From: Bacteroidota bacterium | Lineage (GTDB): Bacteria > Bacteroidota > Bacteroidia > Flavobacteriales > BACL11 | Length of the DNA: 64,000 nucleotides | Direction: 5' to 3' | NCBI GenBank assembly: GCA_036141595.1 | Contig: JAYZXD010000021.1 | Location: 7,969-71,968 of the forward strand | In this document: positions 5,416 through 32,560 of the stretch, piece by piece | Layout: each line of letters begins with the position of its first letter | Numbering within the stretch: the first letter of the stretch is position 1 | Made by a program: the position numbers and the translations under genes | Notes under the pieces: generated by a model | What the model was told of the DNA's origin: nothing | The model's database searches: none | The model's input: only the letters and a program-made list of their open reading frames with translations

Positions 5416-6672
5416 ATGTCATATTTTTTTACTTCTGAATCTGTTTCTGAAGGACATCCAGATAAGATAGCTGATCAAATTTCTGATGCTTTACTAGATA
5501 ATTTTTTAGCACAAGATTCAGAATCAAAAGTTGCTTGCGAAACTTTAGTCACAACTGGTCTAACTGTACTCAGTGGTGAAGTTACAACTAAAGCATACAT
5601 AGATGTTCAAAAAATTGCAAGAGAAGTGATTCTGAAAATAGGCTATAACAAATCAGAGTACCAGTTTGACGGAGATAGTTGTGGTGTAATTTCTGCAATT
5701 CATGAACAATCTCCTGACATAAATCAAGGAGTTGTTGAAGGAAAAGGTTTAAATAAAGAGCAAGGAGCAGGAGATCAAGGTATGATGTTTGGTTACGCAA
5801 CAAACGAAACTGAAAATCTAATGCCTCTTGCACTAGACATATCACATAAAATACTAATTGAATTAGCCAAAATAAGAAAAAAAGGTGTTGAAATGACTTA
5901 TTTGCGTCCTGATTCCAAATCTCAAGTAACAATTGAATATAATGATGATCATACACCAATGAAGATAACTGATATTGTTGTTTCAACTCAACATGATGAA
6001 TTTGCAGATGAAGAAATTATGCAAAAACAAATTAAAAAAGATGTTAAAGAAATTTTAATTCCGAAAGTTAAAGCATGCTTATCAAATGAAAATAAACTAT
6101 TATTTGGTGAAGAAAAATATCATGTAAATCCAACTGGAAAATTTGTTATTGGTGGTCCACATGGAGATACTGGCTTAACAGGTAGAAAAATAATAGTAGA
6201 TACTTACGGAGGTAAAGGGGCACACGGAGGAGGTGCTTTTTCTGGAAAAGACCCTTCAAAAGTTGATAGATCGGCAGCATACGCAACACGTCACATAGCT
6301 AAAAATTTAGTAGCTGCAGGAGTTGCTGAAAGAATACTAGTACAGGTTAGCTATGCTATTGGAATAGCTGAACCTATGGGTATATTTATAGACACCTACG
6401 GAACAAGCAAGGTAAATATGTCGGATGGAAAAATTGCAGAGAAAGTAAAAAATATGGCTTGTTTTAATCTAAAACCAGCTTCCATAATTAAAAGATTAAA
6501 ATTAAAACAGCCAATATATTCTGAAACAGCTGCATATGGCCACATGGGAAGAAAATCAGAAAAGAAACAAGTGATCTTTAAAACAAATAAAGGATCAACA
6601 AGCTTTGATATCGAGACATTTACTTGGGAGAAATTGGACTGTATTGATGAAGTAAAAAAGGTGTTTTTTTAA
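5416..6672 (+). CDS. metK: S-adenosylmethionine synthetase
   Basis: [38 protein letters not shown] and [19 protein letters not shown] motifs. Confidence 0.95.
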
Positions 6673-22876: not shown

Positions 22877-23551
22877 TTAATGATTATTTGTTTCGTTAGA
22901 AAACTTAAATCCTAATCGCTTTGCTGTTCTGATTTTATGATTGTTATTTAAATTTAAAACTTGACTAACAGAAACTACTTTAACATCATTAAAATTTGGT
23001 GTTTGTAAATCAAAATTAAGTGAATATGTAATAGCATTACTAATAATACTAGTTATATATTCTTTATTTATACTTTGATTTGTGAAGTCACTAAATAAAA
23101 AGCCTAGCTGATCCTCTCCTTCAACAAAAAAATTTCTATCTTTATTAATAAAAATTCTAGCAATTAAAAACCCAACATCATTAAGCCTATTATATTTTAA
23201 TGAATCTGAAAGAAAATTATAAATATTAATGATGCCACAAAAAGATCTTGAACTATCCTCTTTAACATATTTACTTTTATGAATTTTATGTGCGGCATCA
23301 AAATCAAAAATGTTTGTATGCATATTAAACAAAAGTGTATCACCTGAGAATTTTATCTTTGCATCGAAATCACCCGACTCTTTGTAAAGTATATTTATTT
23401 TGGGATCTAAAGTCTCCTTATTTAGTTTGTTGACTAATTCAACTAAAACATCTTGGATTTGAGCAAAAACTTCTTTTGTGATCTGATATACTTTTTGTTT
23501 TGTTCCAGCTTTTTCTTTAAGTAATTTAATTATATTTTCTTGATTATTCAT
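22877..23551 (-). CDS. Hypothetical protein (no recognisable domain)
   Basis: 224-aa ORF from ATG 23551 (MNNQENIIKLL...), 1 nt after the proS stop (TAGAATG). The ORF track's TTG at 23569 would overlap proS. No signal peptide, TM segment or catalytic motif is visible. Confidence 0.6.
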   Translation of the reverse strand: MNNQENIIKLLKEKAGTKQKVYQITKEVFAQIQDVLVELVNKLNKETLDPKINILYKESGDFDAKIKFSGDTLLFNMHTNIFDFDAAHKIHKSKYVKEDSSRSFCGIINIYNFLSDSLKYNRLNDVGFLIARIFINKDRNFFVEGEDQLGFLFSDFTNQSINKEYITSIISNAITYSLNFDLQTPNFNDVKVVSVSQVLNLNNNHKIRTAKRLGFKFSNETNNH

Positions 23552-23552
23552 T

Positions 23553-25025
23553 CTAATAATTTTTTGCAAATAAAACTAGCTGATCTGAAGACTTACCACT
23601 ATAAAGACACTTACCCGGTTTTTTATTAGTATTATAAGGAATACACCTGATCGTTGCCTTAGTTTTTTGTTTTATTAGCTCTTCAGTTTCAGATGTCCCG
23701 TCCCAATGAGCGTAGACAAAACCTCCCTTTTTTATTAGCTCTTCAAATTCTTGTTTTGTATTAGCTTCATAAGTATTATCTTCTCTAAAGCTTAATGCAT
23801 TTCGATATAAATTTTCTTGAATTTCATCAAGTATTAATTTTACTTGATTTTCAATATCAGAGATTGCATAAGACTTTTTTTCTAAAGTATCTCTCCTAAC
23901 GATTTCTACAGTTCCATCTTCAATATCTCTTGGACCTAAAGTAAGGCGTAGTGGAACTCCTTTTAATTCATATTCTGCAAATTTCCATCCAGGCTTGTGC
24001 GTATCTCTGCTATCGTATTTAACTGAAATACCTTTTTTTTCTAGTGACTTTTTGATTGAATCTACTTTTAATGATATTTCCTCTAATTGCTTTTTCTCTT
24101 TAAAAACAGGAACAATAACAACTTGAAAAGGAGCAAGTTTTGGTGGTAAGACTAAACCATTATCATCAGAGTGTGTCATAATTAGTGCTCCCATTAATCT
24201 TGTAGATACACCCCATGATGTTGCCCAAACAAATTCTTGCTTACCCTCTTTATTGGTAAATTTTACATCAAATGCTTTAGCAAAATTTTGACCTAAAAAA
24301 TGAGATGTTCCCGCTTGTAGTGCTTTTCCATCCTGCATCAATGCCTCAATACAATATGTTTCCTCAGCACCTGCAAACCTTTCTTTTTCAGATTTTAAAC
24401 CAATAATAACTGGCATTGCCATAAAATTTTGAGCAAATTCAGCATAAACATTTATCATTTGTTCGGTTTCAAAAATTGCTTCTTTTTTTGTAGAGTGAGC
24501 TGTATGCCCTTCCTGCCACAAAAATTCTGCAGTTCTCAAAAATAATCTTGTTCGCATCTCCCATCTGACAACATTAGCCCATTGATTTACTAGTATAGGT
24601 AAATCTCTATATGACTGTATCCATTTTCTATATGTATCCCAAATAATAGTTTCTGAAGTTGGTCTTACGATAAGTTCCTCTTCCAACTTAGCTGATTCGT
24701 CTACAACTACACCACTCCCATCACTTGCGTTTTTTAATCGATAATGAGTAACTACAGCACACTCTTTCGCAAATCCATCTACATGAGCAGCTTCTTTACT
24801 TAAGTATGATTTAGGAATAAATATTGGAAAATAAGCGTTCTCATGTCCTGTTTGTTTAAACATTTTATCAAGCTCAGCTTGCATTTTTTCCCAAATTGCA
24901 TATCCATATGGTTTTATTACCATACATCCTCTTACACCTGAATTTTCAGCAAGACCTGCTAATTGCACCAACTCGTTATACCATTGCGCATAATCTTGGG
25001 CTCTTGAAGTTAATTTTTTCTTCAT
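23553..25025 (-). CDS. proS: Prolyl-tRNA synthetase (archaeal/eukaryote-like type without an insertion editing domain)
   Basis: Class II motifs ([26 protein letters not shown]), anticodon-binding region, C-terminal YAHWDG...IRCIP...Y. Confidence 0.95.
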
Positions 25026-25047
25026 TGTATATTTAACTTAAAAAATG

Positions 25048-25055
25048 TAATTTTG
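25048..25055 (+). promoter_or_regulatory. Candidate -7 promoter box for the lipoprotein/barrel gene pair
   Basis: TAatTTTG, 86 nt upstream of the ATG at 25142. The predicted leader contains a 9-bp inverted repeat AAAACTAAT/ATTAGTTTT (25086-25117). Confidence 0.4.
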
Positions 25056-25141
25056 TAGTATAATTTACGTTAGTAATTATAGTACAAAACTAATAAAATT
25101 AAACTAGCATTAGTTTTAAATTAAAAAACATACAAAAAAGA

Positions 25142-26053
25142 ATGAAAAATATAATATTATCAACTCTAGCCCTACTATTTTTAGGATCATGCATTTCTAC
25201 AACACAAATTTATTATAGTGATCCAAATTATTTAGCAAGTGATGAATTTAGTTCGTATGAAGATCTTGTTAAAAATGAATCTGTTGGCTCTGAATATGAT
25301 ACTACAAGTATAAATGATACAGTATACTCAGAAACAGAAAATTTTTCTACTGATGATTATTATGATTTTTCATTTTCATCTAGAATAAAAAGATTTCATA
25401 ATCCTTTGTTTTATTCAGGATACTATGGTAATTTCTACACCGATTATTACTGGTACCACGATGATCCATTTTTTTGGGGATCTAGTATTTATGCTGGATA
25501 TAACTGGTATTCACCTTATTATTCTTATTATAGCTATTCTCCATTTTATCATAGCTACTACAGCCCATACTACTACGGAAATTATTTTACGTATGGCTAT
25601 CATTTTCATCACTGTCATTCAAATTATAATACATACACTTATTCACATTATCCACTAAATCAGCATGATAGCTATATCAAGGGTAATCGAACAAATTTAT
25701 CAACAAACAGCATATCATCTAACCAGGTAAATAATAGAGGATTAATAAATATAAAAAACAAAAATTCAACTATTAACATTAGAAATAATAATACTAAAAC
25801 ATCAAGTATTTCTAAAAATAATAGCCAGACTAAGAATCAAAATCGAAATAAAGTAAAAACAAATACCTATAATAGAAACAAAGTAAAAACTAACAATACA
25901 AACACAAACTATAAAAACAACAAATCTAATAACAGCAGATCAAATATAAATAGATCAAACATAAATAGATCAAACATAAATAGATCAAATATAAATAGAT
26001 CAAATATAAATAGATCAAATAATAATAGATCAAATAGAAACCCTAGAAGATAG
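25142..26053 (+). CDS. Low-complexity lipoprotein: acidic N-terminal region, Tyr-rich core, Asn/Ser/Lys/Arg tail with RSNIN repeats
   Basis: Lipoprotein signal MKNIILSTLALLFLGSC. 28 Tyr in residues 91-170 (my count). The C terminus is (RSNIN)5-RSNNN-RSNRN-PRR. No domain I can name. Confidence 0.6.
   Translation: MKNIILSTLALLFLGSCISTTQIYYSDPNYLASDEFSSYEDLVKNESVGSEYDTTSINDTVYSETENFSTDDYYDFSFSSRIKRFHNPLFYSGYYGNFYTDYYWYHDDPFFWGSSIYAGYNWYSPYYSYYSYSPFYHSYYSPYYYGNYFTYGYHFHHCHSNYNTYTYSHYPLNQHDSYIKGNRTNLSTNSISSNQVNNRGLINIKNKNSTINIRNNNTKTSSISKNNSQTKNQNRNKVKTNTYNRNKVKTNNTNTNYKNNKSNNSRSNINRSNINRSNINRSNINRSNINRSNNNRSNRNPRR
25937..26041 (+). repeat. Seven tandem copies of a 15-bp unit AGATCAAAYATAAAT (last two degenerate), in frame, encoding RSNIN
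   Basis: Direct reading gives units starting at 25937, 25952, 25967, 25982, 25997, 26012 and 26027. The first five differ only at the T/C wobble position. Confidence 0.9.
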
Positions 26054-26059
26054 TAAAAC

Positions 26060-27493
26060 ATGAGAAATATAATTTTAACACTAATATTTATACTACAAAC
26101 AATTATTATAAATGCTCAAAACGAAATTGATGCACTTAGATATTCTATGACAGATTTATCTGGATCAGCAAGATATACTGCAATGGGAGGAGCTTTTGGA
26201 TCTTTGGGAGGAGAATTCTCATCATTAAGCTCTAATCCTGCAGGTTTAGGGATGTATCAATATTCAGAAATATCTTTCACTCCCATATTTAATTTATATT
26301 CAACAAAATCATATTATTCTAATAATTCAGCTACTGCATACAGATCAAATTCATTAGTAGGTAATTTTGGCTTAATTCTTTCAACACCAAAAAACAACTC
26401 AGACTGGAAAAGAATCAATATTGGAATTGGATGGAACCAATTAGCAAATTTTGATAATTCAACAGTTATTGAAGGTGTAAATTACGATAACTCTATTGTA
26501 GATAAAATTATAGATTTGACCAACGGCACACTAACAAATGATTTAATTAATGGTAATGGTAATACATACTCTCAATTAGCATGGAACACTTATTTAATTG
26601 ATCCATTATACATTAACAATGATTTAGTTGATGGCCAATACATTTCGAATTTTTCTAGTGCTAGCAAAATACAGTATAAAAATATTAGAACTAGCGGTGA
26701 TATGAGTGAATTTGTTATTTCACTTGGTAGTTCTTTCAAAGAAAAATTATATGTTGGAGCAACGCTTGGTATTCCTGCAATCAATTTTTATGAATATTCA
26801 GAATATATTGAAAGTGAAAACACTGATACAGCAAATAATTTAAGAGATATAATTTTAACAGAGGAGCTTTCGGCTTATGGTACTGGATATAATTTTAAGA
26901 TAGGTGCTATTTACAGACTTTCAGAAAATATAAAAATAGGAGGTGCTTTACATACACCTACATTTATCAATATGGAAGAGGATTACAACGTAGCTATGTC
27001 TACATACTTTAAAGACAGTTCATTAAATTATTCTATGGGATATAGAGCTCCATTTAATTATGATTTAATTACACCAATGAAAACAATAGTTAGTGCTTCT
27101 ACAATATTTAATAATATTATTATTTCAGGGCAGTATGAAATAATTGATTACTCAACAGCTGAGTATTTCACTACTGGATTTGAAATTGAAAATAATACTA
27201 TTTCTGAAATTTATCAAAGAACTGAAAATATTAAAGTTGGTGCTGAAATCAATCTCAAAACAATAATTCTTAGAACAGGATATGCAAAATATGGAAGTCC
27301 CTACATAGAAAATGATTTTAGTATAGAAAACTTTAGCTACGGAATAGGAATGAACAATGGTAGATACTTTATGGATGTAGCGTATATATTAAACCAGAGC
27401 ACGTCAGAACACTCACTATATAGTTATGTAAATCCAATAAAGTTAATTAACACTAATCATAGTGTAATATTTACTTTAGGTTTTAGGTATTAG
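26060..27493 (+). CDS. Outer-membrane beta-barrel protein, FadL/OMPP1-PorV-PorQ-like (putative)
   Basis: Signal peptide ending INAQ. SARYTAMGGAFGSLGGEFSSLSSNPAGLG near the mature N terminus. Strand-like alternation throughout. C-terminal FTLGFRY. The start is 6 nt after the lipoprotein stop. Confidence 0.65.
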   Translation: MRNIILTLIFILQTIIINAQNEIDALRYSMTDLSGSARYTAMGGAFGSLGGEFSSLSSNPAGLGMYQYSEISFTPIFNLYSTKSYYSNNSATAYRSNSLVGNFGLILSTPKNNSDWKRINIGIGWNQLANFDNSTVIEGVNYDNSIVDKIIDLTNGTLTNDLINGNGNTYSQLAWNTYLIDPLYINNDLVDGQYISNFSSASKIQYKNIRTSGDMSEFVISLGSSFKEKLYVGATLGIPAINFYEYSEYIESENTDTANNLRDIILTEELSAYGTGYNFKIGAIYRLSENIKIGGALHTPTFINMEEDYNVAMSTYFKDSSLNYSMGYRAPFNYDLITPMKTIVSASTIFNNIIISGQYEIIDYSTAEYFTTGFEIENNTISEIYQRTENIKVGAEINLKTIILRTGYAKYGSPYIENDFSIENFSYGIGMNNGRYFMDVAYILNQSTSEHSLYSYVNPIKLINTNHSVIFTLGFRY

Positions 27494-27498
27494 TCAAT

Positions 27499-28242
27499 TT
27501 AATTTTCAAATTGCTCAGCATCAACTAAAATTCTTCCGCAGTGCTCACAACTTGTTACTTTTTTGTGCATTTTGATATCTAATAACATTTGAGGAGGAAT
27601 TTGATAGCCACTACAAGAAGAGCGTTCAACAGAAACAACCGCTAAGCCATTTGGAACTTTACTTCGTATTCTTTTATATTGAGCTAAAAGTCTCTCGTTA
27701 ATTACTTTTTCAGCTTTTTTTGATTCCTGAAGCAACGACTTCTCTTCTTTCTCTGTTTCTGCAATTATTTCGTTAAGTTGATCTGTTTTAATTTTCAACT
27801 CTTCCTCTTTTTCATTGATCTCATCTTTGCATGAGTTTAATATTTCAGTTTTGTGTAATATACTTGCATCGTTTTGATTTTTCTTTTTATTAGCAAGCTC
27901 TATTTCTAAATTTTGATACTCAACTTCTTTTGTTAGTGATGTGTACTCTCTATTATTTTTAATATTTTTAAGTTGTTCTTCATATTTTTCCACAGCAGCA
28001 ACAGCTAAGGAAATAGTATTTTTATTACCTACAATGTTGTCATTTATATCATCTATTTCAGACTGGATTTTATCCAATCTTAAATTTAAGCCCGCAATGG
28101 TATCTTTCAAATCACTAATTTCTAAAGGCAATTCACCTCTTACTATTCTTATATTATCAATTTTTGAATCAATTACTTGTAATTGGTGTAAAGCTCTCAA
28201 TTGATTCTCAACTGAATCAGCTTTTGTTTTTTGTTTTACCAT
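27499..28242 (-). CDS. Coiled-coil protein with a C-terminal C4 zinc ribbon (DUF164/COG1579-like)
   Basis: Long heptad-like region, then CSGYQIPP...SCEHCGRIL. The usual genomic partner, a NIF3 protein, is encoded immediately upstream. Confidence 0.75.
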   Translation of the reverse strand: MVKQKTKADSVENQLRALHQLQVIDSKIDNIRIVRGELPLEISDLKDTIAGLNLRLDKIQSEIDDINDNIVGNKNTISLAVAAVEKYEEQLKNIKNNREYTSLTKEVEYQNLEIELANKKKNQNDASILHKTEILNSCKDEINEKEEELKIKTDQLNEIIAETEKEEKSLLQESKKAEKVINERLLAQYKRIRSKVPNGLAVVSVERSSCSGYQIPPQMLLDIKMHKKVTSCEHCGRILVDAEQFEN

Positions 28243-28244
28243 TT

Positions 28245-29342
28245 TTATATGTACTTTATTGGATTAGTATTTATTTTTGATAATTGGAGGGCAAATTTAG
28301 GAAATTTTTCTTTAAGCATATCAAAAATTAGTTCCTTTGTATATTGCTCACTTTCATAGTGACCGATATCTGCAATTACAATTTTATCCTCAGCATCAAA
28401 AAATTCATGGTATTTAAAATCAGACGAAATAAAAATATCTGCACCAGCAGAAATTGAGTTCTTTAATAAAAAACTACCACTACCTCCACAAATAGCAACT
28501 TTATAAATATTTTTTTTTGTTTTAGGCTCAGTATATCGAATACAGTCTGTTTTCATTTTTGACTTCAATTGCTTCAAAAATTCAATAGGTGTTATTTCTT
28601 TTGATAAATTACCAATAACTCCAGAACCTATATGCTGATAAGAGTTTTCAAGTGCATAAAGCTGATATGCAACTTCCTCATAAGGATGATTTTTTTTCAA
28701 TACTTTAATAATTTCATGTTCAAGATACTTAGGAAAAACTAAAGAAATACATTCCTCTTCTTTGTTCTGTAATTCTCCAACAGAACCAACATGAGGATTG
28801 CTTCCGTGTAGAGGTTTGAATGTTCCCTGCCCTGTAAAATTAAAACTGCATTGATCATAAGAACCGATGTTTCCAGCACCTACATCAAAAAGTTGTTTTC
28901 TAACTTTAAACGCATCTTTTTTAGGACAATAAAAAACTAAATTGTATAAATGATTTCTTTTGGATTCTAAAACTGATATGTTTTGTAATTCTAAACAACT
29001 AGCAATTTTATAATTTACTCCATTAAATACATTGTCAAGATTAGTATGCATTGCATAAATAGCAATATCATTTTTAATTGCCTTTATAATAGTTCTTTCA
29101 ACATAATTCGATCCATTTATTTTTTTTAGTCCCTTAAAAATTATTGGATGATGAGCGATAATGAGATTACACTTTTTTTGTATTGCTTCTTCAACTATAT
29201 CCTCAGTACAATCTAAAGTTATCAAAGCAGAATCTATGGTATTATTTGCATCACCAATAATTAAACCAGAGTTATCATAATCTTCCTGTATTGACAAAGG
29301 GGCTATGCTTTCAAGATAATTAACTATTCGTTCTATTTTCAT
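28245..29342 (-). CDS. NIF3-family dinuclear metal-centre protein (YbgI/GTP cyclohydrolase 1 type 2 homologue) with an inserted domain
   Basis: DNSGLIIG, IAHHPIIFKGLK, MHTNLD, C-terminal GHYESE. Confidence 0.85.
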   Translation of the reverse strand: MKIERIVNYLESIAPLSIQEDYDNSGLIIGDANNTIDSALITLDCTEDIVEEAIQKKCNLIIAHHPIIFKGLKKINGSNYVERTIIKAIKNDIAIYAMHTNLDNVFNGVNYKIASCLELQNISVLESKRNHLYNLVFYCPKKDAFKVRKQLFDVGAGNIGSYDQCSFNFTGQGTFKPLHGSNPHVGSVGELQNKEEECISLVFPKYLEHEIIKVLKKNHPYEEVAYQLYALENSYQHIGSGVIGNLSKEITPIEFLKQLKSKMKTDCIRYTEPKTKKNIYKVAICGGSGSFLLKNSISAGADIFISSDFKYHEFFDAEDKIVIADIGHYESEQYTKELIFDMLKEKFPKFALQLSKINTNPIKYI

Positions 29343-29346
29343 TTTT

Positions 29347-29354
29347 CAAAAATA
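29347..29354 (-). promoter_or_regulatory. Candidate -7 box for the NIF3/zinc-ribbon unit (leaderless geometry)
   Basis: Minus strand reads TAttTTTG. The G lies only 4 nt upstream of the ATG at 29342. Confidence 0.45.
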
Positions 29355-29378
29355 CAAAAGTCTTTAACAACAAAAGAT

Positions 29379-29386
29379 TATCTTTG
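29379..29386 (+). promoter_or_regulatory. Candidate -7 box for the lpxK operon (leaderless geometry)
   Basis: TAtcTTTG. The G lies only 4 nt upstream of the ATG at 29391 (TATCTTTGCGATATG). Confidence 0.45.
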
Positions 29387-29390
29387 CGAT

Positions 29391-30425
29391 ATGCGTTATT
29401 TTTTATATCCATTTTCATTAATTTACTACATTATAACAACAATTAGAAACCTATTTTATGATCATAAAATTATAAAATCAATAAAACATAAAATACCAAT
29501 TATTTGTGTAGGAAATTTGTCAATGGGAGGTACAGGTAAAACTCCTCTTACAGACTATATTACAAAAACTCTTATAAAAAATTTTAAAATTGCAATTTTA
29601 AGTAGAGGATATGGAAGAAAAACATCTGATTTCCAATACGTGGAGTTAAATAGCAGCCCATTAGATGTTGGTGATGAACCACTTATGTTGAAGAATAAAA
29701 ATCCTAATGCTATTGTTGTAGTAGAAAGTAATAGAAATAAGGCAGTAAAAAAAATTATAAATGACTTTCCAAAAGTAAATTTAATTATTCTTGACGATGG
29801 GTTCCAACATAGAAAAATTCAAGCCAAAACTTATATTTTAACAACTCCATTCCACAATCTGTATTTTAATAATAATATTTTTCCTTTTGGGACACTTAGA
29901 GAAAGTAAAAAAGGTTCTAAAAGAGCAGATATAATAATGGTTAGTAATTCTCCAAAAAAAATTTCAGAAACAACCAGAAAAAATATTATTAAATATATTA
30001 ATCCAGAAAAAAATCAAAGTATATTTTTCTCTAGTATTGAATATTTGAATTATATATCTTTAAAGGATAATAGTGAGGTAAAAAAAGAAAAGTTTAAAGA
30101 TTATGGTGTCACACTGGTAACAGCCATTGCATCAAACAAAAAAATATTAGAGTATATAAAAAGCAATCATAACAATATTAAAATTTTAAGTTTTGTAGAT
30201 CACCATTACTTTAGCGAAGACGATATTCATAAAATTTTAACTCTACATTCAAAGCATAAAAACAGAAAAAAAGTTATATTGACCACGGAAAAAGATGCAA
30301 CTAAACTTAAGCAATATATATCTATATTTGGAGATAATAAAATATACTATATCGATATAAAAATAAATATAGATCAAAAAGAAAAATTTAATAAACAATT
30401 GTTAGATTATGCTAAACAAGATTAA
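29391..30425 (+). CDS. lpxK: Tetraacyldisaccharide 4'-kinase
   Basis: P-loop VGNLSMGGTGKTP, SRGYGRK, ILDDGFQH. Confidence 0.88.
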   Translation: MRYFLYPFSLIYYIITTIRNLFYDHKIIKSIKHKIPIICVGNLSMGGTGKTPLTDYITKTLIKNFKIAILSRGYGRKTSDFQYVELNSSPLDVGDEPLMLKNKNPNAIVVVESNRNKAVKKIINDFPKVNLIILDDGFQHRKIQAKTYILTTPFHNLYFNNNIFPFGTLRESKKGSKRADIIMVSNSPKKISETTRKNIIKYINPEKNQSIFFSSIEYLNYISLKDNSEVKKEKFKDYGVTLVTAIASNKKILEYIKSNHNNIKILSFVDHHYFSEDDIHKILTLHSKHKNRKKVILTTEKDATKLKQYISIFGDNKIYYIDIKINIDQKEKFNKQLLDYAKQD

Positions 30426-31218
30426 TGAGTCTTCAGTCTTCTTAAAAGAAAAAACTAAATTACTGCCTGAAATAGGAATAGTTCTTGGCACAGGACTTGG
30501 TGGATTGGTAAAAGATATTAAGATAACACATTCAATAGAATATAAAAACATCCCAAATTTTCCACTTTCTACAGTTGAAGGCCACACAGGCAGACTAATA
30601 TTTGGCTTATTAGGAAATAAGAGTGTAATAGCTATGCAAGGAAGATTTCATTTTTATGAAGGATATGATATTGAAAAAGTTACTTTCCCAATAAGAGTAA
30701 TGAAAAATTTAGGTATTAAAACATTATTTCTATCAAATGCAAGTGGTGGCGTAAATCCTAAATACAAAGTCGGAGACCTTATGATTTTAAATGACCACAT
30801 AAATCTTATTCCTAATCCACTTATTGGAAAAAATATTGATCAGCTTGGACCTAGATTTCCTGACATGAGTGAGCCATATTGTAAAGAGCTAATTAAGAAG
30901 GCAGAAAAAATTAGTTTATCGAACAATATTGATCTTCATAAAGGAGTATATGTTGCACTTACTGGGCCCACTTTAGAAACACCTGCCGAATATAATTATA
31001 TGAGAATAATTGGAGGAGACACTGTTGGTATGTCAACTGCTCCTGAAGTTGTAGTTGCCAGACACATGAACATAAAATGTTTTGCAATCTCTGTAATAAC
31101 TGATTTAGGAATACCTGGAAAGATAAAAAAAGTAAGTCATAAAGAAATACAAAAGATTGCTGAAGCAACTGAACCAAAACTAACAACAATTATTAAGGAA
31201 GTCATTAAATCAATTTAA
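30409..31218 (+). CDS. Purine nucleoside phosphorylase (trimeric PNP family)
   Basis: GHTGRLIFG, MQGRFHFYEG, SNASGG, GMSTAPEV. Confidence 0.9.
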   Translation: MLNKINESSVFLKEKTKLLPEIGIVLGTGLGGLVKDIKITHSIEYKNIPNFPLSTVEGHTGRLIFGLLGNKSVIAMQGRFHFYEGYDIEKVTFPIRVMKNLGIKTLFLSNASGGVNPKYKVGDLMILNDHINLIPNPLIGKNIDQLGPRFPDMSEPYCKELIKKAEKISLSNNIDLHKGVYVALTGPTLETPAEYNYMRIIGGDTVGMSTAPEVVVARHMNIKCFAISVITDLGIPGKIKKVSHKEIQKIAEATEPKLTTIIKEVIKSI

Positions 31219-31219
31219 A

Positions 31220-32560
31220 ATGATAAAAAAAATATTTTTAATAATTAAGCTAACATTAGCAACATTTTTTGTGAGTGCTCAACAAAATGCAACACTACTA
31301 TATAATTGGCAAGACACATCATTAGTAGGTTCGTGGGCATATGATAATGTATATAATGAATGTTGGGGTCTTTATGTAAATAATAGAGAAATTGCAATCA
31401 TTGGATCTACTGAGGGAACACATTTTTTTGATATCACTGATCCTACTTCAGTAAGCCAGGTTGGTTTTGTTGTTGGAGGTTATACTGGGGCAGGTGTAAT
31501 ACATAGAGATTATCACGACTATCAAGGATATTTATATGCTGTATGCGATGAAGGTAATAGTTCAACATTGCAAATCATAGATATTTCCAACTTACCTAAT
31601 TCAATTAATACAGTTTATGATTCAAATGATCTTTTCACCAAAGCACATAATATTTTTATAGATACTGCAACAGCAAAAATGTATGCTTGTGCTTCTAATT
31701 CAGCAATGGATGTATATAGTTTACAAAATCCTGTAAGTCCTCAACTCATATACTCTTACAACAATGTCGGTCATGTACACGACGCTTTTGTCAGAAATGA
31801 TTCTGCATACTTGAATTGTGGAAACGAAGGACTAAGAATTTTTGATTTTTCAAATGTAAATCAACTTGGAGATCAACCAATCCTTCTAGGATCTTTAACT
31901 TCATATCCTGATGCTGGATATAATCATTCTGGATGGCTTAGTGATGATGGAAAAACATATATAATGCAAGATGAAAACCATGGATATGACGTGAAAGTTT
32001 TAGATGTTAGTGATGTTAATAATATTTCTGTTACATCAACATTTAATTCTGGTGTTAGTTCACAATCTATGGCTCATAACGGAATTATTAAAGGAAATAA
32101 CGCTTATATTCCTTACTATCATGATGGCATTAGGGTATTTGATATATCAGACCCATATAATCCAATACAAACTTGGCAATACGATACATATGCACCACTT
32201 AGTCATGCTTCATACAAAGGTGCTTGGGGTGTATATCCATACTTACCATCTGGAAATATTATTGTTTCTGATATGCAGACAGGACTTTATATTTTTACTT
32301 TAGATGAAAATACTAACATAATTAGTCAACATTTATCAAAAATTCAAATTTTTCCAAATCCTGCTGATAAAAAAATTTGGATTGAATCAAGCGCAGATAA
32401 AATTATTATCTATAATAGTGTTGGTGAGGTAATAGTTAATGAGAAAATACTAAGTTCAAAGCATGCAATTAATACAAATAGTTTTAATAGTGGTATTTAC
32501 TTTTATGAACTTATGAATAATCATAAAAAATTAAGTACAGGTAAAATAATTTTTAAATAA
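31220..32560 (+). CDS. Secreted beta-propeller-like protein (choice-of-anchor B / LVIVD-repeat type) with a T9SS C-terminal sorting domain
   Basis: Signal peptide ending VSAQ. YNECWGLY...IIGSTEGTHFFDITDP pattern. C terminus IFPNPADKKIWIES...SGIYFYELMN...GKIIFK. Confidence 0.7.
   Translation: MIKKIFLIIKLTLATFFVSAQQNATLLYNWQDTSLVGSWAYDNVYNECWGLYVNNREIAIIGSTEGTHFFDITDPTSVSQVGFVVGGYTGAGVIHRDYHDYQGYLYAVCDEGNSSTLQIIDISNLPNSINTVYDSNDLFTKAHNIFIDTATAKMYACASNSAMDVYSLQNPVSPQLIYSYNNVGHVHDAFVRNDSAYLNCGNEGLRIFDFSNVNQLGDQPILLGSLTSYPDAGYNHSGWLSDDGKTYIMQDENHGYDVKVLDVSDVNNISVTSTFNSGVSSQSMAHNGIIKGNNAYIPYYHDGIRVFDISDPYNPIQTWQYDTYAPLSHASYKGAWGVYPYLPSGNIIVSDMQTGLYIFTLDENTNIISQHLSKIQIFPNPADKKIWIESSADKIIIYNSVGEVIVNEKILSSKHAINTNSFNSGIYFYELMNNHKKLSTGKIIFK

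What the first reader, a model, noticed from the sequence alone, without database searches (positions are those of the whole stretch)
25142..27493. Self-contained two-gene unit: extreme Tyr-rich / Asn-Arg-repeat disordered lipoprotein plus a FadL/PorV/PorQ-like outer-membrane barrel
Seen: 25142-26053 encodes a lipoprotein precursor (MKNIILSTLALLFLGSC) with three compositional zones. First comes an acidic D/E/S/T zone (aa ~30-80). Next is an aromatic core where I count 28 Tyr in residues 91-170 (YSGYYGNFYTDYYWYHDDPFFWGSSIYAGYNWYSPYYSYYSYSPFYHSYYSPYYYGNYFTYGYHFHH...). Last is a basic N/S/K/R tail ending (RSNIN)5-RSNNN-RSNRN-PRR. Six nt later, 26060-27493 encodes a 477-aa signal-peptide protein with SARYTAMGGAFGSLGGEFSSLSSNPAGLG at its mature N terminus and a terminal ...FTLGFRY. 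The pair has its own TAatTTTG box (25048-55). Its ~86-nt leader carries a 9-bp inverted repeat (25086-25117). The pair is bracketed by divergent proS and by a convergent gene ending 5 nt away. Established knowledge: the AR..A.GGA ... NPAG N-terminal signature and a terminal aromatic residue typify FadL/OMPP1-type barrels. That fold group also contains the T9SS barrels PorV and PorQ, each of which works with a partner surface protein (PorU, PorZ). Inference: this is a candidate uncharacterised barrel-plus-partner surface module. Possibilities include barrel-assisted display or anchoring of an intrinsically disordered, tyrosine-rich (adhesive or cross-linkable?) lipoprotein whose basic tail could bind anionic polymers. 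I cannot assign any known domain to the lipoprotein.
Basis: partly seen in the sequence, partly recalled or inferred. Interest (0 to 1): 0.6.

Follow-up and report, generated by a model that had tools for sequence, protein, structure and literature searches.

The report
Conserved disordered lipoprotein plus FadL-fold barrel
This two-gene unit is real and found across the phylum Bacteroidota: a tyrosine-rich, positively charged, structureless outer-membrane lipoprotein always encoded just ahead of its own FadL-type barrel protein, a pair that nobody has characterised and that probably helps maintain the cell envelope.

Summary
The two genes are a co-transcribed pair found across the Bacteroidota, not a local oddity. 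A barrel-based genome scan found at least 567 loci. In the 80 kept, a tyrosine-rich lipoprotein with a basic tail sits a median 30 nt upstream of the barrel, and proS lies divergently upstream in about 70.

The lipoprotein has no Pfam or NCBIfam match and AlphaFold2 predicts it disordered (pLDDT 39). It still carries a strongly conserved aromatic core of about 55 aa (DDYYDY-SSRIRRFH…YWY.DP..WG.SIY.GYNW), a polar polycationic tail and a basic C-terminus. It has no surface-export signal (0 of 75).

The barrel has a confident FadL fold. Its best structural matches are BamG of the Bacteroidota BAM complex and FadL. By sequence it is neither BamG, PorV nor PorQ. Its mature N-tail (QNE.DALRY) is near-invariant and about 7 residues longer than FadL's.

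By synteny the Flavobacterium johnsoniae counterpart is Fjoh_4940/4941. Both proteins were detected in outer-membrane fractions and both rose on TamL depletion. That is the only published mention.

Best reading: a barrel-plus-lipoprotein complex working in envelope homeostasis. Surface display is not supported. The leader hairpin is insignificant.

The parts
25048..25055 (+). Candidate Bacteroidota-type -7 promoter box (TAATTTTG) for the lipoprotein-barrel operon
   Evidence: The block CTTAAAAAATGTAATTTTGTA is invariant in the intergenic alignment with L001, L002 and L004, whose barrels are 61-86% identical to the window's. The motif alone occurs at chance frequency.
25085..25092 (-).
   Evidence: GTACAAAACTA is conserved in relatives, and L001 has the variant that reads TAATTTTG on the minus strand. 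The hairpin is not significant (MFE -5.9 kcal/mol, z -0.29).
25142..26053 (+). Gene for the 303-aa intrinsically disordered outer-membrane lipoprotein (new family, no Pfam/NCBIfam match)
   Evidence: There are 146 homologues. S16 and C17 are invariant. AlphaFold2 gives pLDDT 39.
25142..25192 (+). Signal peptide and lipobox (LFLGS-C17)
   Evidence: Read directly from the sequence. A lipobox is detected in 66 of 75 family members at barrel loci and in 112 of 140 representatives found through the core alone.
25193..25351 (+). Conserved post-Cys segment (I..YYSDPNYL.SDEFSSYE) followed by an acidic Ser/Thr zone; no lipoprotein export signal
   Evidence: D27, N29, Y30, L31 and F36 are invariant. Net charge is -13. 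None of 75 sequences has two or more acidic residues at positions +1 to +6 after the Cys.
25352..25516 (+). Conserved aromatic core, aa 71-125 (DDYYDFSFSSRIKRFHNP..YYGNFYTDYYWYHDDPFFWGSSIYAGYNWYSP)
   Evidence: Invariant columns. The motif R.xR[FWY][HY] is present in 62 of 75 sequences. The core alone finds 407 representatives.
25517..25657 (+). Tyr/His/Ser/Pro low-complexity aromatic extension (aa 126-172)
   Evidence: Across the family the best 80-aa window is a median 44% aromatic.
25658..26050 (+). Polar polycationic disordered tail (aa 173-303; net +26), with the conserved G181-x-R183..L186 motif near its start and a basic C-terminus (NPRR)
   Evidence: In the family, median net charge of the last 120 aa is +15, and 58 of 75 sequences end in RR or RK.
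25937..26040 (+). 15-nt tandem repeat (AGATCAAATATAAAT, 6.9 copies) encoding (RSNIN)n
   Evidence: The L001 homologue has (RSNN)n instead.
26060..27493 (+). Gene for the 477-aa FadL-fold 14-strand outer-membrane barrel (a distinct subfamily)
   Evidence: Pfam Toluene_X at E 5.8e-5, below the cut-off. AlphaFold2 pLDDT 78.5, pTM 0.75. Best Foldseek matches are BamG 9hiv_F (E 3e-14), 9hjm_F, 9n2d_B, FadL and TodX. A sequence profile gets no PDB hit.
26060..26116 (+). Signal peptide; predicted cleavage INA|QNE leaves an N-terminal Gln
   Evidence: Sequence. A19 and Q20 are invariant. The cleavage site is an inference.
26117..26263 (+). Conserved N-tail (QNEIDALRYS) and hatch region, including NPAG (26234-26245)
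   Evidence: The N-tail motif occurs in 110 of 120 and NPAG in 114 of 120 independently retrieved homologues. Conservation map. Short helices in the AlphaFold2 model.

Best explanation
The window holds the marine-Flavobacteriales version of an ancient, phylum-wide Bacteroidota operon. It encodes two outer-membrane proteins that work as one complex.

Gene 1 is a lipoprotein with no surface-export signal, so it is most likely anchored in the inner leaflet of the outer membrane. It is disordered on its own. It has a conserved segment after the lipid-anchor Cys, an acidic stretch, a highly conserved aromatic core of about 55 aa, and a long polar polycationic tail. The tail's composition is conserved but its sequence is not, and it ends in a conserved basic C-terminus.

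Gene 2 is a dedicated FadL-fold barrel. It keeps the NPA hatch motif. Its mature N-tail is near-invariant and about 7 residues longer than FadL's, which recalls BamG.

Proposed mechanism (inferred): the barrel is the membrane socket for the lipoprotein, as BamG is for BamH. The lipoprotein's conserved N-segment and aromatic core fold on or in the barrel. The cationic tail stays free as a flexible tether or brush that binds an anionic envelope polymer such as peptidoglycan, LPS or capsule, or anionic lipid. The likely role is housekeeping outer-membrane and envelope homeostasis, not nutritional fatty-acid uptake.

Shown: operon structure, co-conservation, fold, disorder, motif conservation, and absence of an export signal. 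Inferred: physical complex, topology, ligand of the tail, and physiological role.
For: - Co-transcription and co-inheritance. The gap is 6 nt here and a median 30 nt across 74 loci, with 61 of 74 at 60 nt or less. The lipoprotein is upstream of the barrel in about 72 of 80 loci spanning Flavobacteriales, Bacteroidales, Lentimicrobiaceae, Sphingobacteriia, Rikenellaceae and Prolixibacteraceae. The reverse look-up agrees.
- Housekeeping character. The pair is kept in low-GC (about 27%) marine Flavobacteriales MAGs. It sits in a block conserved across the phylum: proS divergent in 68 of 68 scored loci, then Zn-ribbon, NIF3, lpxK and PNP.
- Barrel. FadL fold, with BamG chains from three species among the top five structural matches. 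The N-tail is QNE.DALRY in 110 of 120 homologues and NPAG is present in 114 of 120. NPA lies at mature residues 40-42, against 33-35 in FadL (PDB titles).
- Precedent. BamG's extended conserved N-tail and barrel groove hold the conserved lipidated N-terminus of BamH, and BamG2/BamH2 are an operon.
- Lipoprotein. It is disordered alone yet has invariant core residues. That pattern is typical of segments that fold on binding a partner.
- Topology. There is no export signal in 0 of 75 and 1 of 112 sequences.
- Experiment. By synteny the F. johnsoniae counterparts are Fjoh_4939 (proS), Fjoh_4940 (SPII, no export signal, 'periplasm-facing') and Fjoh_4941 (FadL homologue). Both were detected in outer-membrane fractions (mean 46 and 19 peptides). 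They rose 2.6-fold and 5.6-fold on TamL depletion.
Against: - No direct evidence of a physical interaction.
- The barrel keeps FadL transport hallmarks (hatch, NPA). Some family members pass the Pfam Toluene_X threshold, so a transport role is not excluded.
- The N-tail in the AlphaFold2 model has low confidence (residues 1-31 below pLDDT 50). Whether it threads through a lateral opening is unknown.
- The '+7 residue' extension depends on an inferred signal-peptide cleavage site.
- N-tail conservation in the 80 loci is partly circular, because one scan pattern was AQNE[IV]DALR. The 120 homologues were retrieved independently.
- Orthology with Fjoh_4940/4941 rests on synteny only. The sequences could not be fetched.
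- The export-signal rule predicts default sorting. A dedicated barrel could still expose part of the lipoprotein at the surface.
Confidence: 0.45

Rival explanations
1. The barrel is a working FadL-type channel for hydrophobic molecules such as long-chain fatty acids, lyso-lipids or mislocalised lipids. The lipoprotein is its periplasmic accessory. Its aromatic region would capture or hand over the hydrophobic cargo, and its cationic tail would dock on the anionic inner membrane. Together they would serve outer-membrane lipid recycling.
For: - FadL fold, NPAG hatch motif and weak-to-significant Toluene_X hits.
- The TamL authors read Fjoh_4941 as the FadL homologue. It rises when outer-membrane lipid and protein homeostasis is disturbed.
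- lpxK and a PagL-like gene lie in the conserved neighbourhood.
Against: - Characterised FadL transporters need no dedicated lipoprotein.
- The near-invariant extended N-tail resembles the non-transporting BamG more than canonical FadL.
- The window protein scores below the Pfam cut-off, and the family profile finds no FadL or TodX sequence in the PDB even at E<=10.
- The neighbourhood looks like ancestral synteny of unrelated housekeeping genes, not a lipid operon.
Confidence: 0.3
2. The barrel exports or displays the disordered lipoprotein on the cell surface. There the tyrosine-rich part acts as an adhesive or cross-linkable element, and the basic tail binds anionic surface polymers. The barrel-partner relationship would resemble PorV or PorQ.
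For: - Strict co-conservation of barrel and lipoprotein.
- Characterised Bacteroidota FadL-fold barrels (BamG, PorV) do hold surface partners.
- A Tyr/Asn/Ser-rich, Arg-rich composition could be sticky.
Against: - No lipoprotein export signal in 0 of 75 sequences. Fjoh_4940 is listed among lipoproteins lacking that signal and facing the periplasm.
- No PorV or PorQ family hit, and no T9SS C-terminal domain on the lipoprotein. The same Pfam library does detect one in a nearby gene.
- FadL lumens are plugged by the hatch.
Confidence: 0.15
3. The lipoprotein is cargo, not a partner. A prion-like or amyloid-like Tyr/Asn-rich protein would be secreted through or released from the barrel to build an extracellular matrix, by analogy with curli CsgA/CsgG or Fap.
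For: Composition only. An operon with an outer-membrane barrel fits loosely.
Against: - It is a lipid-anchored protein with an invariant lipobox.
- A FadL-fold barrel is plugged and is not a known protein conduit.
- The core is a single conserved motif, not imperfect amyloid repeats.
- The F. johnsoniae counterpart was found in outer-membrane fractions, and the preprint notes it was not picked up again in the vesicle comparison.
Confidence: 0.05
4. The adjacency is incidental. The two genes are unrelated and simply sit in a conserved syntenic block.
For: The whole neighbourhood (proS, Zn-ribbon, NIF3, lpxK, PNP) is conserved without any obvious shared function.
Against: - Same strand, gaps of 0-60 nt in 61 of 74 loci, and a shared conserved promoter box.
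- The pair stays together where other neighbours change, as in L046 and L024. At L065, where proS is absent, the upstream gene is instead a protein with a DUF3300 match and only a short aromatic, basic C-terminus.
- The F. johnsoniae counterparts change abundance together.
Confidence: 0.03

Closest known systems
BamG-BamH (and the BamG2-BamH2 operon) of the Bacteroidota BAM complex (PDB 9hiv, 9hjm, 9n2d; PMC12578637, PMC12611786)
   Same: - A Bacteroidota FadL-fold 14-strand barrel with a conserved, extended N-tail, paired with a lipoprotein whose conserved lipidated N-terminus is held by the barrel.
- BamG2/BamH2 are co-encoded.
- BamG chains are the best structural matches here.
   Different: - About 11% identity, and no sequence-profile hit to any BamG in the PDB.
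- This barrel is about 80 aa longer.
- BamH is a folded, surface-exposed lipoprotein with an export signal. The partner here is disordered and lacks that signal.
- F. johnsoniae BamG and BamH are Fjoh_1412 and Fjoh_0823, not Fjoh_4941 and Fjoh_4940.
FadL/TodX/TbuX/CymD hydrophobic-substrate channels (Pfam PF03349)
   Same: Fold, N-terminal hatch with NPA motif, terminal aromatic residue, and a weak Pfam hit.
   Different: - Below the Pfam cut-off, and no PDB sequence hit.
- N-tail about 7 residues longer and near-invariant.
- Obligate co-encoded lipoprotein partner.
- Larger extracellular loops.
Fjoh_4940 / Fjoh_4941 of Flavobacterium johnsoniae (PMC12045153)
   Same: - Same order next to proS: Fjoh_4939 proS, then an SPII lipoprotein without export signal, then a FadL homologue.
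- These are probably the orthologues.
- Both are expressed in the outer membrane and rise together on TamL depletion.
   Different: - Orthology is inferred from synteny only, and sequence was not checked.
- The paper says only that gene proximity 'might indicate a functional link'. It does not describe the lipoprotein's composition or the phylum-wide conservation.
PorV-PorU and PorQ-PorZ of the type IX secretion system
   Same: FadL-related barrels in the same phylum that hold partner proteins. The N-terminal A.GGA...NPAG style motif is shared.
   Different: - No PorV or PorQ family hit, and no T9SS entry among the top 50 structural matches.
- The partner has no T9SS C-terminal domain and is not PorU- or PorZ-like.
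RcsF threaded through OmpA/OmpC/OmpF (Enterobacteria); LptE-LptD
   Same: A working analogy only: a lipoprotein with a disordered, positively charged segment whose function depends on association with an outer-membrane barrel. RcsF's export by BamA is mentioned in PMC12578637.
   Different: No homology. The barrel fold, the domain order and the phylum all differ.
Eukaryotic FUS-family low-complexity proteins (Tyr-rich prion-like domain plus Arg-rich region)
   Same: Same compositional pattern: Tyr-rich aromatic 'stickers' in a Ser/Gly/Asn context plus an Arg/Lys-rich polar region. This comparison rests on my own knowledge of the literature.
   Different: No homology. This protein is lipid-anchored in a bacterial envelope, contains a truly conserved core motif, and has never been tested for phase behaviour.

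Membership tests
Bacterial SPII lipoprotein | Signal peptide ending in a lipobox with an invariant Cys | tested here: met
   LFLGS-C17. S16 and C17 are invariant in 20 aligned homologues. A lipobox is found in 66 of 75 and 112 of 140 family members. No dedicated predictor such as LipoP or SignalP was available.
Bacteroidota surface-exposed lipoprotein | Lipoprotein export signal: two or more acidic residues within about six residues after the lipidated Cys (rule as used in PMC12578637) | tested here: not met
   The window protein reads C-ISTTQI. None of 75 and 1 of 112 family members meet the rule. Fjoh_4940 is classed as periplasm-facing and lacking the signal.
FadL/OMPP1/TodX (Pfam PF03349 Toluene_X) | Score at or above the Pfam gathering cut-off | tested here: inconclusive
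   The window protein scores 22.2 bits against a cut-off of 29.7. Relatives range from no hit to 44.1 bits. PF03349 is precomputed on a minority of homologues.
FadL/OMPP1/TodX (Pfam PF03349 Toluene_X) | 14-strand barrel with an N-terminal hatch domain | tested here: met
   AlphaFold2 model with pLDDT 78.5 and pTM 0.75. Foldseek probability 1.00 to FadL, TodX, TbuX and CymD, with TM 0.48-0.64.
FadL/OMPP1/TodX (Pfam PF03349 Toluene_X) | Conserved NPA motif in the hatch | tested here: met
   N59-P60-A61-G62 is invariant and present in 114 of 120 homologues. The FadL motif position is taken from the PDB titles N33A, P34A and delta NPA.
FadL/OMPP1/TodX (Pfam PF03349 Toluene_X) | Lateral wall opening, and transport of hydrophobic substrates | not testable with these tools
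   Model coordinates could not be inspected. No functional assay was possible.
BamG (Bacteroidota BAM subunit) | Sequence orthology to Bt4367, PgBamG or Fjoh_1412 | tested here: not met
   The family profile finds no PDB chain at E<=10, although 9hiv_F, 9hjm_F and 9n2d_B are in the PDB. Structural-alignment identity is 11%. F. johnsoniae BamG is Fjoh_1412.
BamG (Bacteroidota BAM subunit) | Extended (about 10-12 aa), highly conserved N-terminal tail | tested here: inconclusive
   The tail is near-invariant. By NPA register it is about 7 residues longer than FadL's, but the cleavage site is inferred and the tail has low confidence in the model.
BamG (Bacteroidota BAM subunit) | Partner is BamH, a folded surface lipoprotein with an export signal; the complex includes BamA | tested here: not met
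   The partner here is disordered, lacks the export signal, and has no detectable domain. Association with BamA is not testable.
PorV / PorQ (T9SS) | Match to the curated PorV or PorQ family models | tested here: not met
   No NCBIfam family at E<=1. That NCBIfam holds PorV and PorQ models is from my own knowledge. No T9SS entry is among the 50 best Foldseek matches.
PorV / PorQ (T9SS) | Partner or cargo carries a T9SS C-terminal domain, or is PorU or PorZ | tested here: not met
   The lipoprotein has no Por_Secre_tail or other domain. The same library detects Por_Secre_tail in the ORF at window 31220-32560.

The most novel reading that the evidence does not exclude
The pair would be a previously unrecognised core envelope component of the Bacteroidota. 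A FadL-fold barrel would nucleate a lipid-anchored protein built like a 'sticker-and-spacer' chain: a Tyr-rich aromatic block plus an Arg/Lys-rich polar tail, the same compositional pattern as FUS-type phase-separating proteins. This protein would form a polyelectrolyte tether or condensate-like layer. That layer would link the outer membrane to peptidoglycan or the inner membrane, or would sense LPS and envelope damage. It would supply a function that Lpp or RcsF-type systems supply in Proteobacteria and that is missing in this phylum.
Probability: 0.12. Interest if true: 0.85.

Novelty: new variant of a known kind. Interest (0 to 1): 0.6.

Why it matters
[quoted passage not shown] In 2025 a FadL-fold barrel (BamG) holding a lipoprotein (BamH) was shown to be essential for outer-membrane protein assembly in this phylum.

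This finding points to a second, separate FadL-fold/lipoprotein pair. It is conserved across the phylum, kept in small marine genomes, and expressed in the F. johnsoniae outer membrane (by synteny), yet it has no assigned function. Its partner is an extreme disordered protein that nevertheless has an invariant aromatic core.

If the pair is a physical complex, it defines a new protein family and domain. It would also be a new use of the FadL scaffold, and a tractable entry point into how the Bacteroidota organise or monitor their envelope. F. johnsoniae genetics already exist for the work.

Tried and rejected
- Pfam and NCBIfam on the window lipoprotein, and Pfam on eight distant homologues, found nothing meaningful. 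The weak Extensin, DUF6491 and MrtP hits are compositional.
- A sequence profile of the barrel family against all PDB chains gave 0 hits at E<=10.
- AlphaFold2 of the lipoprotein with a 20-sequence alignment gave pLDDT 39 and no fold, so no fold search was run on it.
- The leader hairpin is not more stable than shuffles and was rejected as a regulatory RNA.
- TAnnTTTG as stand-alone evidence was rejected because it is at chance frequency. It was kept only because the box is conserved in relatives.
- A search for a second FadL-like paralogue among 51 window ORFs with the family HMM found none.
- A conserved O-glycosylation sequon D-[ST]-[AILVMT] was considered. The window protein has two sites (DTT, DTV), but the count is 0-2 across the family, so I make no claim.
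- A third homologue search from a Bacteroidaceae-labelled barrel aimed to reach named proteins of cultured species. It returned only MAG proteins named hypothetical, 'OmpP1/FadL family transporter' or 'long-subunit fatty acid transport protein'.
- Literature searches for a described tyrosine-rich lipoprotein with a FadL-like barrel found nothing beyond the TamL paper's passing remark. The F. johnsoniae BAM paper's supplements do not list Fjoh_4940 or Fjoh_4941.
- BamG orthology was considered and rejected.

Full report
**1. Observation**

ORF 25142-26053 (+) encodes a 303-aa precursor that starts MKNIILSTLALLFLGSC. ORF 26060-27493 (+) follows after 6 nt and encodes a 477-aa protein.
- Residues 91-170 of the lipoprotein hold 28 Tyr.
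- There are three compositional zones. Residues 21-80 have net charge -13. Residues 81-172 are 51% Y/F/W/H. Residues 173-303 are 34% Asn with net charge +26.
- The tail ends (RSNIN)x5-RSNNN-RSNRN-PRR.
- TAATTTTG lies at 25048-55, and a 9-bp inverted repeat lies at 25086-25117.
- The convergent gene's stop codon lies 5 nt after the barrel stop.

At 12.9% Tyr, the lipoprotein is the most Tyr-rich of the 47 window ORFs of at least 200 aa. The RSNIN run is encoded by a 15-nt tandem repeat of 6.9 copies. The window has about 27% GC.

**2. Both genes are real and conserved**

- The barrel has 851 homologues at E<=1e-3, all unnamed or 'hypothetical', from marine Flavobacteriales MAGs. A more distant query gives over 2384.
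- The lipoprotein has 146 homologues. An alignment of 20 of them shows several conserved features:
  - an invariant lipobox (S16, C17);
  - a conserved YSDPNYL.SDEFSSYE segment;
  - an almost invariant aromatic core, DDYYDYSFSSRIRRFHRP..YYGG.YTDYYWYNNDPF..G.SIY.GYNW.SPYY;
  - a G.R..L motif;
  - a variable N/S/K/R tail;
  - a conserved KPR[KR] C-terminus.
- The 69-aa core alone retrieved 407 cluster representatives (E<=1e-3) out of 1.84 billion proteins. Each has one copy of the core, 45-165 residues from its N-terminus. Of these, 112 of 140 have a lipobox, 1 has an export signal and 107 have a basic C-terminus.
- No Pfam or NCBIfam family covers the lipoprotein or its distant homologues.
- AlphaFold2 predicts it disordered (pLDDT 39, pTM 0.13).

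It is therefore a new family: a conserved short aromatic core embedded in disorder.

**3. The barrel**

- Pfam gives only a sub-threshold Toluene_X (FadL/OMPP1/TodX) hit, 22.2 bits against a cut-off of 29.7. Distant members range from no hit to 44 bits.
- The AlphaFold2 model is confident (pLDDT 78.5, pTM 0.75) and shows a barrel with short N-terminal helices.
- Foldseek against the PDB gives BamG of the B. thetaiotaomicron BAM complex first (9hiv_F, E 3e-14). Next come P. gingivalis BamG, E. coli FadL, F. johnsoniae BamG (9n2d_B), TodX, TbuX and CymD, all at about 11-13% identity.
- No T9SS entry is among the best 50 matches. No PorV or PorQ model in NCBIfam is matched.
- The family profile finds no PDB sequence at all, even at E<=10. 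It is therefore a separate FadL-fold subfamily, not BamG.
- The mature N-terminus QNE.DALRY is present in 110 of 120 independently retrieved homologues, and NPAG in 114 of 120. Fifty-four positions are at least 95% identical over 81 barrels. Part of that conservation is circular, because AQNE[IV]DALR was one of the scan patterns.
- With cleavage at INA|QNE (inferred), NPA sits at mature residues 40-42. In FadL it is at 33-35 (PDB titles). The N-tail is thus about 7 residues longer.
- The BAM papers single out an extended, conserved N-tail as the feature that separates the non-transporting BamG from FadL channels.

**4. Co-occurrence and synteny**

A genome scan with the barrel alignment found at least 567 confirmed loci. 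The 80 kept span Flavobacteriales, Bacteroidales, Lentimicrobiaceae, Sphingobacteriia, Rikenellaceae and Prolixibacteraceae.
- About 72 of the 80 loci have an upstream same-strand ORF of the same type. Those ORFs are 270-350 aa in marine Flavobacteriales and 450-700 aa elsewhere.
- Of 75 such ORFs of at least 200 aa:
  - 66 have a detectable lipobox;
  - 62 have the R.xR[FWY][HY] core;
  - the median best 80-aa window is 44% aromatic;
  - the median net charge of the last 120 aa is +15;
  - 58 end in RR or RK;
  - none has two or more acidic residues in the six positions after the Cys.
- The lipoprotein-barrel gap has a median of 30 nt, and 61 of 74 gaps are 60 nt or less.
- A reverse look-up from lipoprotein homologue P0201 finds a 489-aa gene 2 nt downstream and proS divergent upstream.
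- Clustering all ORFs of 81 loci shows a block conserved across the phylum:
  - proS is divergent in 70 of 81 loci, on the opposite strand in all 68 scored;
  - then come the lipoprotein and the barrel;
  - an optional 490-aa ORF without a confident domain follows in 36 loci, and is absent here;
  - the block continues with a Zn-ribbon gene (47 loci), NIF3 (44), lpxK (40) and PNP (34).
- In higher-GC lineages the tail is Ser/Gly/Arg-rich (for example ...SSGSSSGSSRSGRR) rather than Asn/Lys/Arg-rich. Selection is therefore on polar, cationic, disordered character, not on sequence. The Asn-Arg repeat is a low-GC lineage version of that tail.

**5. Literature**

- Two 2025 papers show that the Bacteroidota BAM complex contains an essential FadL-fold barrel, BamG. 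Its conserved extended N-tail and surface groove hold the conserved lipidated N-terminus of the surface lipoprotein BamH. The paralogues BamG2 and BamH2 form an operon (PMC12578637, PMC12611786). F. johnsoniae BamG and BamH are Fjoh_1412 and Fjoh_0823.
- The TamL paper (PMC12045153) lists three adjacent genes:
  - Fjoh_4939 is proline-tRNA ligase.
  - Fjoh_4940 is an SPII lipoprotein lacking the export signal, classed 'periplasm-facing, function unknown'.
  - Fjoh_4941 is a FadL homologue.
- That is exactly the conserved order found here, so these are very probably the orthologues. This rests on synteny; the sequences could not be fetched.
- Both proteins were detected in outer-membrane fractions (mean 46 and 19 peptides). 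They rose 2.6-fold and 5.6-fold on TamL depletion.
- The authors note only that the gene proximity 'might indicate a functional link'.
- No other paper in the library mentions these genes or a tyrosine-rich lipoprotein paired with a FadL barrel.

**6. Regulatory details**

- TAnnTTTG is at chance frequency in this AT-rich window (124 observed, 123 expected).
- The block CTTAAAAAATGTAATTTTGTA is invariant in the intergenic regions of three relatives whose barrels are only 61-86% identical. That supports a real -7 box at 25048-55.
- A second conserved box, TAGTTTTG on the minus strand (25092-25085), fits the divergent proS promoter.
- The leader hairpin is not significant (MFE -5.9 kcal/mol, z = -0.29).

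**7. Interpretation**

Shown:
- an operon that is co-inherited across the phylum;
- a FadL-fold barrel of a distinct subfamily with a conserved extended N-tail;
- a lipoprotein that lacks an export signal and is disordered, with a conserved core and a polycationic tail;
- expression in the outer membrane of the probable F. johnsoniae orthologues.

Inferred:
- The two proteins form a complex in which the barrel acts as a socket for the lipoprotein, as BamG does for BamH.
- The conserved N-segment and aromatic core fold on the barrel.
- The cationic tail binds an anionic envelope polymer.
- The role is envelope homeostasis.

I put this at about 0.45. The rivals are:
- a true FadL-type lipid or hydrophobic-substrate channel with an accessory lipoprotein (0.30);
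- the lipoprotein as secreted matrix cargo (0.05);
- incidental adjacency (0.03).

**8. Verdict**

The finding is a new variant of a known kind (Bacteroidota barrel-lipoprotein complexes built on the FadL scaffold), and it contains a new protein family. Interest is 0.6.

Noticed in passing
window 25026-25141: The 116-nt proS-lipoprotein intergenic region carries two conserved TAnnTTTGTA boxes, one per strand: plus strand 25048-55 and minus strand 25092-85. Their arrangement means the 5' ends of the two divergent transcripts would overlap by roughly 15 nt. The head-to-head proS/lipoprotein arrangement holds in 68 of 68 scored loci, with a median spacer of 107 nt, which suggests coupled regulation.
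   Followed up: partly
window 25937-26040; L001 about 5900-5994: The (RSNIN)n tail is encoded by a near-perfect 15-nt tandem repeat (6.9 copies, 93% match). The closest genome-scan relative (L001, barrel 86% identical) has (RSNN)n instead. The repeat is therefore evolutionarily labile and could vary in length by slippage.
   Followed up: partly
L002:7413-8885 (-) and 35 other loci; L081:6434-7897: A roughly 490-aa ORF with no confident Pfam domain (only a faint TPR_8 hit) lies convergent, immediately downstream of the barrel, in 36 of 81 loci. It is missing in the window and in L001. It may be a lineage-specific loss, or a third associated gene.
   Followed up: partly
window 27499-31218 and L001-L080: A long block is conserved from Flavobacteriales to Bacteroidales: proS, lipoprotein, barrel, Zn-ribbon (CT398-like), NIF3, lpxK and PNP. 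In Bacteroidales-type loci a PagL-like barrel and a DUF2807 protein sit beyond proS.
   Followed up: partly
window 31220-32560 (+): A 446-aa protein with a Por_Secre_tail domain (E 1.8e-11) shows that this organism has a type IX secretion system.
   Followed up: no
window 22877-23569 (-): A 224-230-aa ORF directly beyond proS has no significant Pfam hit but is conserved next to proS in 31 of 81 loci (cluster c7).
   Followed up: no
L012, L066, L080: Contigs labelled Thalassomonas, Comamonadaceae and Omnitrophica carry a barrel of this family. L012 and L080 also have the typical upstream lipoprotein. These are probably mis-binned Bacteroidota contigs in MAGs.
   Followed up: no
L044:4123-5946, L059:4388-5980, L078:4497-5969: The long tails of non-Flavobacteriales homologues are built from short tandem peptide repeats, such as TVTPGRTEQPGRTSG, KGYSKPKSDYN and SYS.PSRSSS. 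The Y-S-x-P-S-R-S-S unit recurs in several orders.
   Followed up: no
literature (PMC12578637): Bacteroidota BamA has a flexible extracellular loop 3 rich in Tyr, Gly and Asn (13 Tyr) whose function is unknown. Its composition resembles the aromatic region of this lipoprotein. I found no evidence of a link.
   Followed up: no
L065:4812-5903: At one locus that lacks proS, the gene upstream of the barrel is not the usual lipoprotein. It is a 363-aa protein with a DUF3300 match scoring just under Pfam's cut-off (E 1e-4) and only a short aromatic, basic C-terminal stretch. The barrel partner may have been replaced or remodelled there.
   Followed up: no
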